From: Octopus vulgaris
Lineage: Eukaryota
NCBI GenBank assembly: GCA_951406725.2
Contig: OX597815.1
Location: forward strand, 189,844,001 to 189,908,000
Direction: 5' to 3'
DNA length: 64,000 bases
Of this stretch, positions 2,675 to 62,000 are shown piece after piece. The notes below the pieces were generated by a model. That model saw nothing but the letters and a program-made list of their open reading frames with translations, was not told where the DNA came from and did not search any database. The position numbers and the translations under genes are program-made. The first letter of the stretch is position 1. The number at the start of each line of letters is the position of its first letter.

Positions 2675-2974
2675 TATAGATATGATGCACAACGCACCAT
2701 ATGTTTAATAATCTGAAATGTTTAATAAGAAATATCTAATGATAAACAATACAAATTTTAGCTTAGCTTCTGCTGCGGTGTGCAATATAATACATCTGGA
2801 CAGTTGTAAGCAAATGTTTATCAATAATCTACAATGTTTACAGAACTTAGAGACATGTTATTACTATGAAACCTTCTGACATGTATGGTTGATCAACCAC
2901 ATTAAACTGTGGTTCGGGTTATATAATCACTGTTTATCTCAAATATATTAACATATTTCGTTTTTTGGATTTGG

Positions 2975-3245
2975 TTTGCAAGATTCTTTATATGAGTTCA
3001 TGTGTTGAAGCATATTCTATTGTGTCTGGGGAGAGTCATTTTCTTTTTGTGCCTTATTATGTAACACACACACCGGTAAAATTTCCACATTTTTCCACAA
3101 TTTTCAAAACTATTGAAAAGGTTGCAACACGCAACGAAAATTTTAAGAAAATAAAAATAAGAAAAACGTGGAAATTTTACCGGTGAGGGTGTTACATAAT
3201 AAGGTACAAAAAGAAAATTTTTCTCCCCAGACACAATAGAATATT
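2975..3245. repeat. Fold-back pLTR-like element with U3-A8 HHR-like motif (3110-3146, +)
   Basis: Arms gtgtctggggag...accggtaaaattt and its reverse complement; same family at 14680-15010, 23630-23830, 32797-33270. Confidence 0.75.
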
Positions 3246-14679: not shown

Positions 14680-15010
14680 ATTTCGTTTTGGTTTGCAAGA
14701 TTCTTTATATGAGTTCGTGTGTTGAAGCATATTCTGTTGTGTCTGGGGAGAGTCACTTTCTTTTTGTGCCTTATTATTCAACACACTCACCGGTAAAATT
14801 TCCACATATTCCTTATTTTTATTTTCTAAAATTTTCGTTGCATGTTGCAACCTTTTCAATAGTTTTGAGAGTCAAAACTATTGAAAAGGTTGCAAAACGC
14901 AACAAAAAATAATTTTAGAAAATAAAAATTAAGAAATAAGTGGAAATTTTACCAGTGAGTGTGTTAAATAATAAGGCACAAAAAGAAAGTGACTCTCCCC
15001 AGACACAACA
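14680..15010. repeat. Fold-back pLTR-like element with two U3-A8 HHR-like motifs
   Basis: About 140-bp arms centred near 14870; motifs at 14826-14862 (-) and 14878-14917 (+, damaged). Confidence 0.75.
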
Positions 15011-15011
15011 G

Positions 15012-15049
<38 letters not shown>

Positions 15050-23590: not shown

Positions 23591-23927
23591 AATTTGTGAA
23601 GAATCTTTTGAGAATTAATACATATGAGAGTCAACAACTATCAAAACGGTTGCAAGATAACGAAAATTTTAGTAAAAATGAATAAGTAAATGAAAGGAAA
23701 TCAGACTGGTGAGTGTGTTAAATCAATAAGGCATTAAAAGAGAATGACTCACCCCAGACACAATAAAATATGCTTCAACACACGAATTCACATAAAGAAT
23801 CTTGTAAACCAAATACAAAAACAAAATATATATGTAATGCTTTTATACTAGTATTGCTTATATATTACCAGTGTTGTTTATATAATGAACTATGTACATC
23901 AGCAGCTCAGTTAAAAATTATATTTTA

Positions 23928-30901: not shown

Positions 30902-31004
30902 GGAGTAAACACATAAATGTGAAACAAGGTGGAAAAAAAGAGTACTCAAATACCAGTGGTAGAGTAATATGCTTTATTTAAAGCAGCAGAAAATTCAACA
31001 AAAC

Positions 31005-31042
31005 CTGTTACTCTGAGTTTCCCGTTGCCGTTCATCGGACAG
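31005..31042 (-). ncRNA. HHR motif, CCGAUGA (U4C) variant, in fold-back 30972-31192
   Basis: Minus strand: ctgt CCGATGA acg gcaa cgg GAAACTC a GAGTA acag; mirror copy 31122-31159 (+). Confidence 0.7.
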
Positions 31043-31190
31043 TTTTTGCTAGAATGGAACCGATATGTCAATTCTATCCAGACTGGATAGAATAGACTTA
31101 TCGGTTCCATTCTAGCAAAAACTGTCCGATGAACGGCAACGGGAAACTCAGCTTAACAGATTTTGTTGAATTTTCTGCTGCTTTAAATAA

Positions 31191-32599: not shown

Positions 32600-33270
32600 T
32601 GCCATTCTAATGCTTCAAAAAAAAAAAAAAAAAAAAAAGGAAAAGAAAGAAAAAGAAAACAAAGTTTATGCCATGTAGACCAAATTTGAATTAAAAAAAC
32701 TGTTTAGCTAATTAATGAAGAATCATTAAGTTTAGTATAAACTCGAAAATCTATTTGAAAGGAGGCACCATAACTGAAAATTTTAAAAGCATAATCTGTT
32801 GTGTCTGAGGGAAGTCATTTTCTTTTTATGCCTTATAATTTAACACACTCACCGGTAAAATTTCCACTTGTTTCATATTTTTATTTTCCTAAAATTTTCG
32901 TTGCGTCTTGCAACCTTTTCAATAGTCTTAGCCTATTGAAAAAGTTGCAAAACACAACGAAAATTTTACCGGTGAGTGTGTTAAATTATAAGGCACAAAA
33001 AGAAAATGACTCTCCCCAGACACAACAGACTATGTATGGTTTTTAAAATTTCAAATATGGCACCTCCTTTCAAATAGATTTTCGAGTTTATACAAAACTT
33101 AATGATTCTTCATTAATTAGCTAAACAGTTTTTAAATTCAAATTTGGTCTACATCCTATAAACTTTGTTTTCTTTATCTTTTTTTTTTTCGAAGCACCAG
33201 ACAGAACAGAATATGCTTCAACACACGAACTCATATAAAGAATTTTGCAAACCAAATCCAAAAACGAAAT
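32600..33270. repeat. Nested fold-back with U3-A8 HHR-like motifs at its centre
   Basis: About 32655-32925 mirrors 32933-33175; motifs at 32889-32925 (-) and 32933-32968 (+). Confidence 0.8.
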
Positions 33271-35059
33271 ATAAAAACCATAGAATTTCCATTTACTATC
33301 GGTAAACTATATTTTCTTCCGTCAGCATTACAGTCGCAATTGAAAATAAAATTTCCTACATGTAACATGTATTAGTTCTGAGAGTGTGTATCCTGTTTTC
33401 TTCTCTTCTCATCTCTTTAATAGCTTGAAAGGACGCTGCATATTGTTGCCATTGTTTCAGGTGTACATCTTTCAACTGAATTATTTGCTGCTCGTGCATT
33501 ATAAGCTTTTCACGGAATCAACAACATATAATTGAGCAAACTACCTTTGATAACAGAACCATCAGCTAGAAGCAATATGGGTCTCTTGCAGGTGAATGTA
33601 CTATGTGCGCTCTCATCGATGTAAAGGACAATATAAGAGTTATACAACCTCATATTTTGTTTGAAATCATTATAAAAGGATTATTGGAATCTGACATTCA
33701 GCTTCGCATCATTCAAAAGGAAGGAAGCAGTTTTCCCTTATGGCATTGTTATTGAAGTATCCGTCACTAGGTTGTTCAAATATGAAACGTTTGGCCATGT
33801 GAAGCTGACATAGGATATTCATATCTCCACAGTAAAGTAGTTAAATGTTTTGTTTATTTGCATGTTGAACTGGATACTCTTTCGACAACATGTTTTCGAT
33901 TTTGACCAGTTTTCACTCCTTTATCGTTAGGCTCTCTTCTATTATTGTTGCATTAATTCTTGTCCTCCAGATTTCGTTCCCTTCGCATCCTGGGCCACAT
34001 GGCATTTCTTCTAGTATTTCCCCATTCATCATTTTCCATTTGATTTACTTTATCTCTGGATTGAGCATTTCTCATAATTTCCTGCTAATTCTTCATTTAA
34101 CCAATGCCCTCGAGCTGTTTTTCGTATAACTTCTATTTCTTTTTGACTTAAAGTGGATTTTCTTCACAGTCTTTCTCTATCTAATCTACGTGCGTGTTCG
34201 TACGTGGTGATTCCACATTTATCAGCTGGAACATTTCATAATAATATGTCAGCAATAAAGATAATATTATATATGCACACACGATATTAAAGTGTCCGAA
34301 AGATCGAACGAATTTGTTGCAACTGTGAAACGTTTTGCAAAGTAAATATGTCAAACTGTTAAAACAAACACCTCGTGCACCATTAGTGCAAAAGATTTCA
34401 AAATCCCTTTGCGTTCTTTCCTGCAAGAAGCTGTTGTTGTGAGGAATTTGCATACATATGTACATGCGTGCACACATACATGTATGCCCCTACCCCTCTC
34501 TCCTCCTTCCACGTGACTGATGTCCAGCCAGCTATGATCATTCTTTCTTGGCCTAAATGCCGACCGCCAACACTTCTTATGTACATCTCCTATGTCCCTG
34601 CCTTTAGGCTTTCACTGCCTTTAGGCTCAATTTGATTCATTCTCAGTCGAAAGACACCTGTTGTTATATTATTGTTGTTTGTATTTGTCATTGTGTACCA
34701 TGTTCTCCGTGTTTTGTCTTTGTTGCTGCATACATCTGCTAGATTTCTTACAAAGAATTCTAATGTTCTTAGCTTAGACTTTTTGGGGAGTAACCAGATC
34801 GAACTGTCTCAAGTGTAACTGCCCGAAACAGTAAGGACTGCTGGTAACTTGACTGAAGAAAGAAGGCCACGAATAGCCTGCCTTTTTTTGCCTGTCCTTC
34901 TAATTGTTGCTTCGCCTGTCCGCCTTTGTATCGTCTATCTGTCCGAATGTTTTATTGTCCTCTATTGCGTTTTTGCTACATTTTTTTATACGTACTTACA
35001 TACATACTTGCATAAGTACTAACATGTATGTGCGTGAGTTTGAGGTAAATGACAGTGTG

Positions 35060-53628: not shown

Positions 53629-54077
53629 AATGACCAATGAAAATAATACATTTTTACCCTCTTCTTTTACTCTCTAACAAAATGTTACCCACCAATTTTA
53701 ACTATGCTATTTAATATTTCCTCATACTGCACATGACATGAGTAAATATGGTCAGCCCAAGGATAAAGTAAATTGCATTTGTCCAAGGTGCTACACAGCA
53801 GGACTGAAGCTGAGATCATGTGGTTGTGAAGCAAGTTTCTTACCACACAGCCATGCCTGCACCTGGTTAGGAGGTATTGTACATTCTTAAAATAGTTATT
53901 GGCTAGAATTATCTATAATTCTCAACAAATAATTATACAATTTAAAGAAAGAAGAAAAAAATTTATCTTCACCATAGTTTCATCAATAACAGGGCAAAAA
54001 CAAATAACTAAACGCATTAACAAAAACCGAGAGCAGAGAAATAAACAAAAATATACATACATACTTATATATTCATA

Positions 54078-56192
<2,115 letters not shown>

Positions 56193-56194
56193 GT

Positions 56195-57842
56195 AAAAAA
56201 TGAAGTTCGAAAATGCTGCTGTATTATATAATTTTTAATTTTTATATATACATTATAACATGTTTCAGTTCCTGAAATGAACCTTATCAAAAAAAGTTAT
56301 ATATAAAAAGAGACAGCTCATGCCGTCAAACACAAGAAATTCATTTATAATACACAACGGAGTCAGACATCTTAGAGTTCATGTATAGTTGATATATAGT
56401 TCATGTATAGTTGATATATAGTTTGAAGTATATTTCAAAGTGTTCGATGCAGTGGCCCACGGTGGCGATACGTATTCAATGCAAAAAACAGATCAAAGTG
56501 GTGGAAAGCGGTCAATACAGAAGATTGATGTTTCCGAAAGAGCGAGGAATTCATTTTTACCTTAAGCAATTGTGATGACCCATGGTGGAAGTTCGCTGGG
56601 TGGTTCTAGTGATTTTTTGTGAAATGCTTGGTTTTATAATGCCTGTTAGGTGGTCAATCTAGCGTAGCGTGACGTCATCAATGTTTTGACCAATCGTTTC
56701 GTTAGTTGGCTTTAATCAAGTGGAACGGGACGTCATCATTATTTTGACCAATCAGTGCATTATAACTCCCTCTTGTTTGTTTCCTGTCTTGACCAGTCGC
56801 TTCGTTAGTCAAGCATAGCGGGATGTCATTCAGATTCTGCCCAATCACGACTTATAGCTACATTAGATCTGTCCCCTGTCTGTACTTGTTAGGTGACTAT
56901 TCAAGCAGAAAAGGACGTCATCAATATTCTGACTAATGACTGTCCCCTGTTTGTATCCTGTCCATTCTAGCAGAGCTAGATGTCATCAACTTGTTGACCA
57001 ATCAGAATCGGGTCTGACCCTTAGCTGTATCGTATGTATCAGGGTCAGATTTGCACGAAAGAATTTTTTTCCTTTTTTTACTAAGGCATATTTCCGTCAG
57101 AGTGAGTGTCTGTTTGAAGTAGCGGCCGTGGTGAAATTTGGTTCTCCTTTTCGGAGGACTTATCTTTTGTTTTAGTATTCCTGGCCCAGGGTGTTTAAAC
57201 TTGGTCTAAATTTTTTTATGAAATATAGTTCTTTATTTTGGCGTTGTGTGAAGGTTGCGTTGTCACTGAATTTATAGAGCGGGTTAGTTGTAAATTTCGG
57301 ATTTACATTTCCAGCACATCTATCTATGTGTCCGCTGACCGGTATTTTGCGGTAATCAGGGTTTCTAATTTGTGATTTATGCACCGCCATCCTGTTACGT
57401 AAGCTATTTTTTGTATGGCCTATATACTGCCTATTGCAGCCTGCGCATGTTATGACGTAAATTAAGTTTTCTGATGCGCAGGTGAAGTTTGTTCTAATGG
57501 TGAACTGGTGGCCTTGTTCCAGTATAAATTCTGATCCTTCTTTCAAGATGACACAGATTCCGCAGTTGGGCCTTCCACATTTTCTAACTGCTGGTTTTGT
57601 GGTTGATGTTGAGTGCAGTGTAGCTTGGGTTAAAATCCTTTTCAAGGATTTTGGTTGCCGTTTACTTTTAATGATCGTGTGTGTTTCGAGGATCCGGTTC
57701 ATCTTTGGGTCTCCCTTTAGTAGGGCTGTGCTTTGTAGTATGGTGTTGAAGGCCTCATTGTTGAGTGGGTTGTGTGTAGAGATGTAGGGAAGGGTTTTTA
57801 ATTGTTCTTTCTTTTTTGGTTTTGTTTGTCTCAGGTCTTCAT
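56195..57842 (-). mobile_element. 5'-truncated Penelope-like element (GIY-YIG, 3' UTR, pLTR with HHR-like motif)
   Basis: GIY-YIG ORF followed by about 1 kb UTR; both ends in TA arrays. Confidence 0.9.
57172..57842 (-). CDS. PLE linker and GIY-YIG endonuclease (partial)
   Basis: LPYISTHNP...CGRPNCGIC...[25 protein letters not shown]...LRNRMAVH...RQNKELYFI...PSLN; frame open upstream to the TA tract. Confidence 0.9.
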
Positions 57843-59040
<1,198 letters not shown>

Positions 59041-62000
59041 TCATCATCATCATCGTTTAGCGTCCGTTTTCCATGCTAGCATGGGTTGGACGGTTCTACT
59101 GGGGTCTGTGAAGCCAGAAGGCTTCATCAGGCCCAGTCAAATCTGGCAGTGTTTCTACGGCTGGATGCCCTTCCTAACGCCAACCACTCCGTGAGTGTAG
59201 TGGGTGCTGTTTACGTGCCACCCGCACTGGTGCCAGACAGAGCTGGCAAACGGCCACGAACGGATGGTGCTTTTTATGTGCCACCGGCACGAGGGCCAGG
59301 CAAGGCTGGCAACGGACACGAAACGGGGCGGTGCTGGCAACGGTCGCAAAACGGAAAGTTCTCTTACATGCCACCGGCACTGGTAACACATCTGCAATTT
59401 CCATTGATCGATTTCCATTGATCGATTTCGATTCTGATCCTCACTTGCCTCAACGGGTCTTCACAAGCAGAGTTTTGACATGCCACCGGCACTGGTAGCA
59501 CATCCGCAATTTCCATTGATCGATTTCGATTCTGATCCTCACTTGCCTCAACACGTCTTCACAAGTAGAGTTTTGTGTCCCAAGAAGGGAAGGTATGCAT
59601 ACGTAGGCCGGCTCCATCCCATGTAGAAGGCCACGGGTTATGGACTCACTTGTCCTGCCGGGTCTTCTCGCGCACAGCACACTTCCAGAGGTCTCGGTCT
59701 CTAGTCATTTCCTCAGTGAGACCTAAAGTTCGAAGGTCGTGCTTCACCACCTCGTCCCAGGTTTTCCTGGGTCTGCCTCTTCCACAGGTTCCCTCAACCG
59801 CTAGGGTGTGGCCCTTTTTCACACAACTATCTTCATCCATTCTCGCCACATGACCATACCAGTGCAAACGTCTCTCTTGCACACCACAACTGATGCTTCT
59901 TAGGTCCAGCTTTTCTCTCAAGGTACTTACACTCTGCCGAGTGTGAGTACCGGCATTACACATCCATCGGAGCATACTGGCTTCATTTCTAGCGAGCTTA
60001 CGCATATCCTCAGCAGTCACGGCCCATGTTTCACTGCCATGTAGCATGGCTGTTCGTACACACGCATCATACAGTCTGCCTTTCACTCTGTGCGAGAGGC
60101 CTTTTGTCACCAGCAGAGGTAAGAGCTCTCTGAACTTTGCCCAAGCTATTCTTACTCTAGCAGTTACACTTTCAGCACACCCGCCCCCGCTGCTGACTTG
60201 GTCACCTAGGTAACGGAAACTATCAACTATTTCTAGTTTTTCTCCCTGGAAAGTGACGGAAGTTGGTCTCAGAGCATTTTCAGTGTTTATTGTTCCTGAG
60301 CATCTGCCACATACAAAAACCATCTTCCTAGTTAGCCTTCCTTTGACATTGCTGCATCTCTTATGTGTCCATAGCTTACACTTGGTGCATCTTATAGAGT
60401 TTCTACCTACACCTTTTCTACAGATCGAGCAGGGCCATCTACCTGAAGGTGTTTGTGATTTGTCTACCTTCCTACTGATTACGACTTTGGTTTTAGCTAG
60501 ATTGACTCTGAGGCCCTTCGATTCTAATCCTTGTTTCCACACCTGAAACTTCTCCTCCAGTTCTGATAGCGACTCAGCAATTAGAGCAAGGTCATCAGCA
60601 TAGAGGAGCTCCCAAGGGCATCCTGTCTTGAATTCCTCCGTTATTGCCTGGAGGACTATGATAAATAGGAGGGGGCTGAGTACTGAGCCTTGGTGGACTC
60701 CTACCTCTACCCGGAATTCTTCACTGTACACATTTCCAACCCTCACCCTACTAGCGGCGTCCCTATACATGGCCCGCACAGCTCTCACTAACCATTCATC
60801 TATCCCTAGTTTCCTCATTGCCCACCAGATAAGGGATCGGGGGACCCTGTCGAAGGCTTTCTCCATGTCAACAAAAGCCAGGTACAGGGGCTTATCTTTG
60901 GCTAGGTATTTCTCCTGCAGCTGCCTTACCAGGAATATAGCATCAGTAGTACTTTTCCCTGGCACAAACCCAAACTGCATCTCATCTAAACTAACTCTCT
61001 CTCTAATTAGTTGGGCTATGACCCTCTCCGTAACCTTCATCACCTGGTCCAACAGCTTGATACCTCTGTAGTTATTTGTATCTAGGGCATCACCTTTACC
61101 TTTGTAGCAGTTGACTATTATACTGCTACACCAGTCATTGGGTATGACCCCTTTGTGTATCACCTGATTAACTATACGGGTGACTAGGCTATAGCCGACA
61201 CTACCAGACATTTTGAGCATCTCTGCAGTGATTCCTGATGGGCCTGGGGCTTTCCCTGTCTTCATGCTTCTAATTGCCTTAGCTACCACGGAACTATCAA
61301 CTCGGATAGCTGGTCCCTCTGTTGGGTCAACATTCGGCAGACTCTCTTTATCCCATTCATTTTCTTCATTCAGCAACCTTTCATAGTGGCATCTCCAAAC
61401 CTCTCTCTTTGCATCCTCATTTAGCGCAAGTGAACCATCTTCCATGCGAACACACTTCTCTCCTACCACATCACGATTCTCTCTCACACACTGTCTTGCA
61501 ACACGAAACACCTCCAGTCTTTGGTCCTCACGGCGCAGAACATTGGCAAATTTTTTCTTATCTGCTTCCCCTCTGGCTAAATAAACCTGTCTCCTAGCTT
61601 CTCTTTTGGCAGTCTGATACAATCCCCTGCTACCCCCATTTTTCCAGACCTTCCAAGCCTGTCTCTTTTCTCTAATAGCCCTGTCTACAATATTGTTCCA
61701 CCACCACGTTATTCTAGGTCGAGAGGGGACTTTGCACCAGCCACAGATCTGGTCAGTGGCTCTCAGCAGGTTGTCCCTTAGAAACGTCCAGCTGTCTTCT
61801 ACCCCCTGTGATGCTCTATCCCCTTCTACTTCGTCAGAGGCTTCAAGTAATATGTCCCTAAATCTCTGTCCATTTGCAGGATCTTTAAGCTTCCAGATCC
61901 TTCTTCTCCATATTTGTCATCTTCTGGTTGTCCTCCTAGTCCTGATCCTAAAGTCACTAACTACCAGTCTATGTTGTGGGGTACATTCTTCACCTGGGAA

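What the first reader, a model, noticed from the sequence alone, without database searches (positions are those of the whole stretch)
32889..32968. Family with compensatory U3-A8 hammerhead core (UUGAAAA)
Seen: cta TTGAAAA g GTTGC-loop-GCAAC GAAAATTT tag recurs at 32889 (-), 14826 (-), 3110 (+), with damaged copies at 14878, 32933 and 23638. Known: C3-G8 is a tertiary Watson-Crick pair and a U3-A8 swap preserves it. Stem III is reduced to the palindrome AAAAUUUU and the predicted cleavage triplet is UUU. Inference: a divergent ribozyme lineage that standard CUGANGA searches would miss.
Basis: partly seen in the sequence, partly recalled or inferred. Interest (0 to 1): 0.8.

Follow-up and report, generated by a model that had tools for sequence, protein, structure and literature searches.

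The report
Penelope-element hammerhead with U3-A8 core
The motif is the small hammerhead-ribozyme-like fold at the start of the terminal repeat of an abundant Penelope-like jumping gene; its swapped U-A core pair is real but already published, whether it cuts RNA is untested, and the one less ordinary point is an older subfamily that spread with a U-G version.

Summary
The motif is real: 2,485 exact copies in the genome against 0 for the reversed control. It opens a ~200-nt repeat that is the pseudo-LTR of a Penelope-like retroelement (RT motifs, C-terminal GIY-YIG, Cys linker, ~4.3-kb unit). The window holds four ORF-less stubs, three of them head-to-head inverted pairs, so two of the 'damaged copies' are opposite arms. 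A young sister family (60% protein identity) has a C3-G8 hammerhead at the same place. The novelty claim fails: U3-A8 minimal hammerheads in Penelope pLTRs (~1,300 in Schistosoma), the extra nucleotide and the 2-nt palindromic helix III were published in 2014, and natural U3-A8 in 2011. This scan has also noted the variant in six other findings. Cleavage is untested. Copies begin 9-16 nt upstream of the core and none begins at the cut site, so uncut RNA is likely the template. One addition: an older subfamily spread with U3·G8. Whether it is the intermediate from C-G to U-A or an offshoot is unresolved.

The parts
32889..32925 (-). Intact minimal type I hammerhead motif: helix I CUA/UAG, core U3 U4 G5 A6 A7 A8 A9, extra G, helix II GUUGC/GCAAC, G12 A13 A14, helix III AAUU, predicted cut after U17 (UUU)
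   Evidence: the MFE fold gives helices I and II with an open core, z -2.7; covariation
32787..32929 (-). pLTR arm, positions -7 to +134 relative to U3, without tail
32930..33034 (+). Opposite pLTR arm (-6..+32 and +58..+131, internal deletion) with the damaged hammerhead at 32933
33056..33186 (.). Inverted copy (92%) of the local left flank 32641-32772, lying between the arm and the tail
33197..33272 (+). Displaced pLTR tail (+113..+188, within the start of the ORF)
14826..14862 (-). Intact hammerhead motif
14681..14868 (-). pLTR arm with tail (-9..+178)
14868..15016 (+). Opposite pLTR arm without tail (-13..+130), damaged hammerhead at 14878 (G12 lost, insertion)
3104..3244 (+). pLTR arm (-9..+130) with hammerhead at 3110; helix I reduced to 2 pairs (TAA)
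2953..3095 (-). Opposite 5'-truncated arm with tail (+47..+188), no hammerhead
23627..23829 (+). Single, more diverged pLTR stub (-13..+188, 84%) with a decayed hammerhead at 23638

Best explanation
[quoted passage not shown] SHOWN: position in the pLTR, 103 nt before the ORF's ATG; direct pLTRs about 4.3-4.4 kb apart around the ORF; inverted truncated partners; two 3' ends (+130 and +188); covariation with the sister family. INFERRED: transcripts start about 10-13 nt upstream of the core; the two ribozymes of one pLTR-ORF-pLTR transcript (or of two transcripts) pair through the AAUU palindrome and could release a unit-length RNA; reverse transcription starts at the two 3' sites and usually copies uncut RNA. 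The window copies are dead, ORF-less stubs.
For: 17 of 20 loci chosen by the endonuclease region carry the repeat downstream on the same strand. The ORF has RT motifs (QVQGAAIG, YVDD), a C-x4-C-x2-C linker and GIY-YIG PF01541 at 28.7 bits, cut-off 22.6. 4 of 20 loci chosen by the N-terminus have direct pLTRs on both sides, and 2 of these (L064, L069) also have an inverted truncated copy upstream. 33 of 56 loci are head-to-head pairs, and in 27 of those 33 exactly one arm has the tail, as described for PLEs (PMC8557442; PMC11167929). The sister family (intact 1312-aa ORF, 60% identity over 427 aa, homologous N-terminus) has CCA CUGAUGC G GUCAC n6 GUGAC GAAA GAAC UU UGG in 20 of 20 pLTR copies found in 12 loci. 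On the 4-row alignment 44 of 44 cells pair and 5 of 11 pairs change on both sides; 1 of 500 shuffles reaches this, and slid controls give 37-59% paired. Other minimal hammerheads in the same loci and window share the extra nucleotide and the UU at 16.1/17. Of 30 loci chosen by the 3' part only, 13 begin at -16..-9 and none at the cut site (+31; nearest +28 and +39).
Against: No cleavage data. The active dimer scores -8.6 kcal/mol against -14.6 for two monomers and -15.6 for an inactive dimer paired through all of AAAAUUUU (secondary-structure energies only). [quoted passage not shown] Within the family the core is no better kept than typical sites (3.1% against a median of 3.4%), as expected for dead copies. 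An older subfamily spread with U3·G8, so a Watson-Crick 3-8 pair was not needed for copying. All five double changes come from one comparison (the sister row). The sister has C at position 9. Pfam found no RT domain in P0001 and nothing in the whole sister protein at E 0.01.
Confidence: 0.88

Rival explanations
1. A hammerhead by descent that no longer cuts: the fold is kept as a promoter-proximal or protein-binding structure, or is drifting.
For: No copies start at the cut site. A U3·G8 subfamily multiplied, and C3·A8 copies are 131 against 2,485. Hammerhead mutants do not affect insertion in vitro in the anole element (PMC11167929). The active dimer is not the lowest-energy form.
Against: The unpaired core letters (U4 G5 A6, GAAA, U16.1) and the 3-8 pairing are kept between families whose helices have changed, which is hard to explain without catalysis. 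The anole PLE hammerhead does cut with protein help. This rival differs from the best explanation only on catalysis.
Confidence: 0.3
2. A MITE or foldback DNA transposon whose central hairpin mimics a hammerhead by chance.
For: The window copies are long palindromes (83-90% arm identity).
Against: The centre of symmetry differs from copy to copy, the arms are unequal (tail on one arm), the arm encodes the N-terminus of an RT-GIY-YIG ORF, and longer copies run into that ORF.
Confidence: 0.02
3. A different register: cut after UUA, with loop AUUU and helix I starting at the following G.
For: UUA is a valid NUH triplet by sequence.
Against: It leaves about one helix I pair (direct reading).
Confidence: 0.04

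Closest known systems
U3-A8 minimal hammerheads in pLTRs of Cercyon Penelope-like elements, Schistosoma mansoni (Cervera and de la Pena 2014, PMC4209133; parts 1-2 of 4 read)
   Same: U3-A8 core, unpaired nucleotide between 9 and 10.1, G10.1-C11.1, place in the pLTR, mostly single or opposite-strand copies
   Different: Here helix II is 5 bp (7-8 there), helix I is 3 bp (4-5 there), and the host is an octopus; a U3·G8 subfamily is not mentioned in the parts read
Drosophila virilis Penelope pLTR hammerhead (same paper)
   Same: Helix III with a 2-nt palindromic insertion, very short helix I, extra nucleotide before helix II
   Different: U3-A8 is not reported for it; it has a bulge in helix II and an intron end at helix I; no intron support was found here
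Poseidon element of Anolis carolinensis (Frangieh 2024, PMC11167929; parts 1-2 of 4 read)
   Same: Two RT start sites in the ORF start defining a tail; uncut RNA as main template; no read ends at the cut site
   Different: C3-G8 core; its ATG lies inside helix II, whereas here it is 103 nt after U3; the tail is about 58 nt here against 30-40
Neptune/Nematis clades of EN+ Penelope-like elements (Craig 2021, PMC8557442; passages read)
   Same: C-terminal GIY-YIG, Cys-rich linker between RT and EN, tandem and inverted pLTRs, hammerhead in the pLTR
   Different: Clade not tested by phylogeny against named elements
Natural U3-A8 hammerheads (Perreault 2011, PMC3088659; section 8 and passages read)
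   Same: The same covariation at 3-8
   Different: That paper does not link them to Penelope pLTRs in the passages read

Membership tests
Minimal type I hammerhead of Penelope-like elements | Core N3 U4 G5 A6 N7 N8 A9 ... G12 A13 A14 A15.1 ... U16.1 H17 with a Watson-Crick 3-8 pair | tested here: met
   U3-A8 in 60 of 60 whole cores; C3-G8 at the homologous place in the sister family
Minimal type I hammerhead of Penelope-like elements | Helix II opening with G10.1-C11.1 after one extra nucleotide | tested here: met
   5 bp, 2 pairs changed on both sides against the sister
Minimal type I hammerhead of Penelope-like elements | Short helix I closing the motif | tested here: met
   3 bp, 1 pair changed on both sides; present in the MFE fold of 2 of the 3 window copies folded
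Minimal type I hammerhead of Penelope-like elements | Short palindromic helix III | tested here: met
   AAUU; 15.2-16.2 is A-U here and G-C in the sister
Minimal type I hammerhead of Penelope-like elements | Self-cleavage after H17, as a dimer or with protein | not testable with these tools
   No assay; RNA reads of a related organism show no pile-up of ends, which does not decide it
EN+ Penelope-like element | Single ORF with reverse transcriptase | tested here: met
   RT motifs in translation (motif names recalled); best homolog labelled reverse-transcriptase-domain protein; Pfam itself gave no RT hit
EN+ Penelope-like element | C-terminal GIY-YIG endonuclease | tested here: met
   PF01541, E 1.7e-6, 28.7 bits, cut-off 22.6, residues 331-424 of 428
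EN+ Penelope-like element | Direct pLTRs flanking the ORF and overlapping its start | tested here: met
   L061, L063, L064, L069; N-terminal homology to the sister ORF, E 8e-31
EN+ Penelope-like element | Inverted 5'-truncated copy and a tail on one end only | tested here: met
   33 of 56 loci; 27 of 33 with the tail on one arm
EN+ Penelope-like element | Retained intron in the pLTR (optional) | tested here: inconclusive
   A GTGAGT lies in the 5' UTR, but no matching joint was listed in RNA reads and the sister lacks the candidate acceptor
Neptune/Nematis clade | CX2-5CxxC linker before the endonuclease | tested here: met
   CTNDNCMVC in P0001; definition from PMC8557442
Neptune/Nematis clade | RT phylogeny with named members | not tested
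   No named reference elements were held
MITE / foldback DNA transposon | Fixed terminal inverted repeats, no link to an RT ORF | tested here: not met
   Variable centre, unequal arms, continuity with the RT-GIY-YIG ORF

The most novel reading that the evidence does not exclude
One genome preserves a stepwise compensatory change in a ribozyme's tertiary core pair: C3-G8 in a young sister family, U3·G8 in an older subfamily that still multiplied, and U3-A8 in the younger main family. The wobble form would then be a viable natural intermediate (C-G to U·G to U-A), passable because copying uses uncut RNA.
Probability: 0.3. Interest if true: 0.45.

Novelty: new member of a known kind. Interest (0 to 1): 0.22.

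Why it matters
As a ribozyme type it adds little: the U3-A8 minimal hammerhead of Penelope pLTRs is in print, and this scan has met it repeatedly. It does give an unusually clean natural comparison, three states of the 3-8 pair in homologous positions in one genome, with a young, intact-looking sister family beside thousands of datable dead copies. That makes a small open question testable: whether PLE hammerheads need to cut for the element to move. The 5' ends of copies and the spread of a U3·G8 subfamily both suggest they do not.

Tried and rejected
Rfam scan: no hammerhead family among the 150 rows shown of 246; the other 96 were not seen. The repeat finder was swamped by microsatellites. 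Excess of C3-G8 double changes within the family: 6 seen against 2.7 expected from 131 and 51 singles, Poisson p 0.056, so not claimed. A separate C3-G8 master in the old subfamily: 3 of 12 G8 cores, one of them at a truncation junction; the Fisher test used 3 of 13 before this recount and is not relied on. First arm-dating attempt: p 0.09, confounded by alignment through the asymmetric centre; redone on shared columns. Direction of the 3-8 change: the ML tree nests G8 copies among A8 copies, the alternative is not rejected (p-AU 0.10), and diagnostic columns match the sister 18 young, 9 old, 3 neither; unresolved. A 48-nt intron in the 5' UTR: no support. Sequencing runs: no RNA holder listed. 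Raw RNA reads of organism C (3 runs, about 6 in 100 read) cover the pLTR about equally in both directions with no pile-up of ends; this reflects embedded copies or an unstranded library and a species that may differ, so it is no evidence on cutting. The paralog of the 32.9-kb locus also holds the insertion, so it is not an empty site. PDB sequence search: nothing significant. Lunse et al. (PMC5785218) is not held; it is known here only through PMC6765202. Paper searches for U3-G8, C3U/G8A and octopus with Penelope and hammerhead listed no paper on a U3·G8 PLE subfamily or on this family. Supplements were not read (Cervera 2014 Figs S2-S5 may show such variants), and subscription papers and repeat databases are not covered.

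Full report
OBSERVATION. The motif CTA TTGAAAA G GTTGC n5 GCAAC GAAA AT TT TAG is intact at 32925-32889 (-) and 14862-14826 (-). A 34-nt exact pattern occurs 2,485 times in G000 (2.8 Gb, 227 contigs) and the reversed control 0 times. Folding the two intact copies gives helices I and II around an open core (z -2.7 and -2.4); the 3110 copy folds otherwise. No hammerhead family appears in the 150 Rfam rows shown of 246.

CONTEXT. The motif is the start of a ~200-nt repeat (1,148 first-look candidates). Numbering from U3 = 0, the window has four insertions: 3.1 kb (arms -9..+130 and +47..+188), 14.9 kb (-9..+178 and -13..+130), 32.9 kb (-7..+134 and -6..+131, with a displaced +113..+188 piece) and a single older stub at 23.6 kb. 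Genome-wide, 33 of 56 loci examined are head-to-head pairs, and in 27 of the 33 one arm ends near +130 and the other near +188. Some copies run upstream through a CA-rich UTR into an ORF. 17 of 20 loci chosen by that ORF's 3' end carry the repeat downstream on the same strand. The ORF has RT motifs, a C-x4-C-x2-C linker and a GIY-YIG domain above Pfam's cut-off. 4 of 20 loci chosen by the N-terminus have direct repeats on both sides of the ORF, 4.3-4.4 kb apart where both cores were located, and 2 of them also have an inverted truncated copy upstream. The ATG lies at +103, inside the repeat. This is the pseudo-LTR architecture of EN+ Penelope-like elements, with the Neptune/Nematis-type linker (PMC8557442, passages). 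The best protein hit, P0002, is labelled Octopus vulgaris and is encoded in G000 at 100% identity, so the host is taken to be that octopus.

IS IT A HAMMERHEAD? Variation among dead copies cannot show selection: the core varies 3.1% (23 of 749 cells) against a median 3.4% per site downstream. The informative test came from P0002's family, a young sister element (most copies 98-99% identical, ORFs up to 1312 aa, 60% identical to P0001 over 427 aa, homologous N-terminus). At the same place in its pLTR it has CCA CUGAUGC G GUCAC n6 GUGAC GAAA GAAC UU UGG, identical in 20 of 20 copies in 12 loci. On a MAFFT alignment of two window copies, one old-subfamily copy and the sister, all 44 cells of the 11 predicted pairs pair. 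5 pairs change on both sides: one in helix I, two in helix II, 15.2-16.2, and the tertiary 3-8 pair (1 of 500 shuffles as high; slid controls 37-59% paired). All five come from the one sister comparison, but they fix the register, including U17. Other minimal hammerheads in the fetched loci and in the window (4387 -, 63896 +) have C3-G8 and the same extra nucleotide, and at least two unrelated families have U3-A8. Only AAUU can form helix III. Full pairing of AAAAUUUU gives an inactive dimer at -15.6 kcal/mol against -8.6 for the active one and -14.6 for two monomers, so weak or protein-assisted cutting is expected, as reported for other PLE hammerheads (PMC4209133; PMC11167929).

MECHANISM. 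Of 30 loci chosen by the 3' part of the repeat alone (three of them already held, one being the window's own copy), 13 begin at -16..-9, and none at the predicted cut (+31; nearest +28 and +39) (binomial 3e-7 against a uniform spread over a range chosen after the fact). Inference: transcripts start just upstream of the ribozyme, reverse transcription begins at +130 or +188 and usually runs to the 5' end of uncut RNA, and the two products join head to head. This matches the anole element, where two RT start sites bound the tail and hammerhead mutants still insert. Cutting, if it occurs, would need two copies paired through AAUU, and would trim the leader or release a unit-length RNA. RNA reads from a related organism did not decide this.

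THE 3-8 PAIR ACROSS SUBFAMILIES. Exact-pattern counts are U3-A8 2,485, C3·A8 131, U3·G8 51 and C3-G8 6; the doubles are not clearly above the 2.7 expected (p 0.056). G8 is not scattered. 28 of 60 copies with loop AAGAA have it, and most of the 20 of those 28 that were fetched share downstream diagnostic letters. Among 22 loci chosen by those downstream letters alone, 12 of the 15 readable cores have G8 (9 U3, 3 C3 with one at a junction), 2 have A8 (one duplicated locus) and 1 has C8, against 0 G8 of 67 in loci chosen without regard to the core. Paired arms of this subfamily differ by 13.6% (5 pairs found in 39 loci) against 7.0% in the main family (23 pairs in 42 loci), one-sided p 0.002, so its insertions are older. 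Direction is open. With the distant sister as root, the ML tree of the ORF 3' part nests G8 copies among A8 copies (the second left out five rows). Holding all A8 rows together is not rejected (p-AU 0.10), and diagnostic columns favour sister = young 18 to 9. In one deep mutational scan only the G-C swap rescued this pair (PMC9901934, passage), so U3·G8 may be a poorly cutting form that spread because cutting is dispensable.

COMPARISON WITH WHAT IS KNOWN. Cervera and de la Pena 2014 (parts 1-2 of 4 read) report U3-A8 minimal hammerheads in Cercyon PLE pLTRs (~1,300 hits), the extra nucleotide, G10.1-C11.1, palindromic 15.2-16.2, opposite-strand pairs, and a 2-nt palindromic helix III with 2-bp helix I in D. 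virilis. Perreault 2011 (section 8) first saw natural U3-A8. The NUH rule admits U17 (PMC3884650, passages; H = not G is recalled). Six earlier scan notes on other genomes reach the same filing; I had formed this reading before seeing them. Searches listed nothing on this family or on a U3·G8 PLE subfamily, with supplements and subscription papers unseen.

VERDICT. The boldest reading left open is a preserved C-G to U·G to U-A path (probability 0.3, interest 0.45).

Noticed in passing
window 4387 (-) and 63896 (+): Two canonical C3-G8 minimal hammerhead motifs of other families (extra A before helix II; palindromic CG or TA insertion; 5-bp and 3-bp helix I), probably other Penelope pLTR stubs.
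   Followed up: partly
window 33056-33272: In the 32.9-kb insertion the tail is separated from its arm by a ~130-150-nt inverted copy of the local left flank, joined to the tail through a short shared stretch; this looks like a template switch onto target DNA. Seen in 0 of 33 other paired loci.
   Followed up: yes
G000:C2:189828000-189830200 (L193): A local inverted duplicate (about 88%) of the 32.5-33.0 kb region, including part of the insertion, lies about 47 kb away, just outside the window.
   Followed up: partly
L171-L182 (e.g. L175): A very young sister Penelope-like family (many 98-99% identical copies, ORF up to 1312 aa, 4.6-kb unit) whose hammerhead has C3-G8 but C at position 9 and a GAAC helix III insertion.
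   Followed up: partly
L025 (two copies), L039, L068: At least two further unrelated U3-A8 minimal hammerhead families with an ACCGGU palindromic helix III.
   Followed up: no
window 30991-31173: A 183-nt near-perfect palindrome, probably a MITE; the Rfam miRNA match is far below the gathering score.
   Followed up: no
window 5700, 19752, 21071, 22675, 27348, 36493: Six copies of a 226-nt dispersed repeat at 73-92% identity, SINE-like (family D20).
   Followed up: no
window about 53900-59050: Very long low-complexity TA-rich tracts (GC 0.10 in 54001-56000), with a 577-nt self-complementary run near 57841-59041.
   Followed up: no
L010, L012, L009: Short tandem reiterations of the hammerhead 5' half or of the tail at insertion junctions, suggesting repeated priming or slippage.
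   Followed up: no
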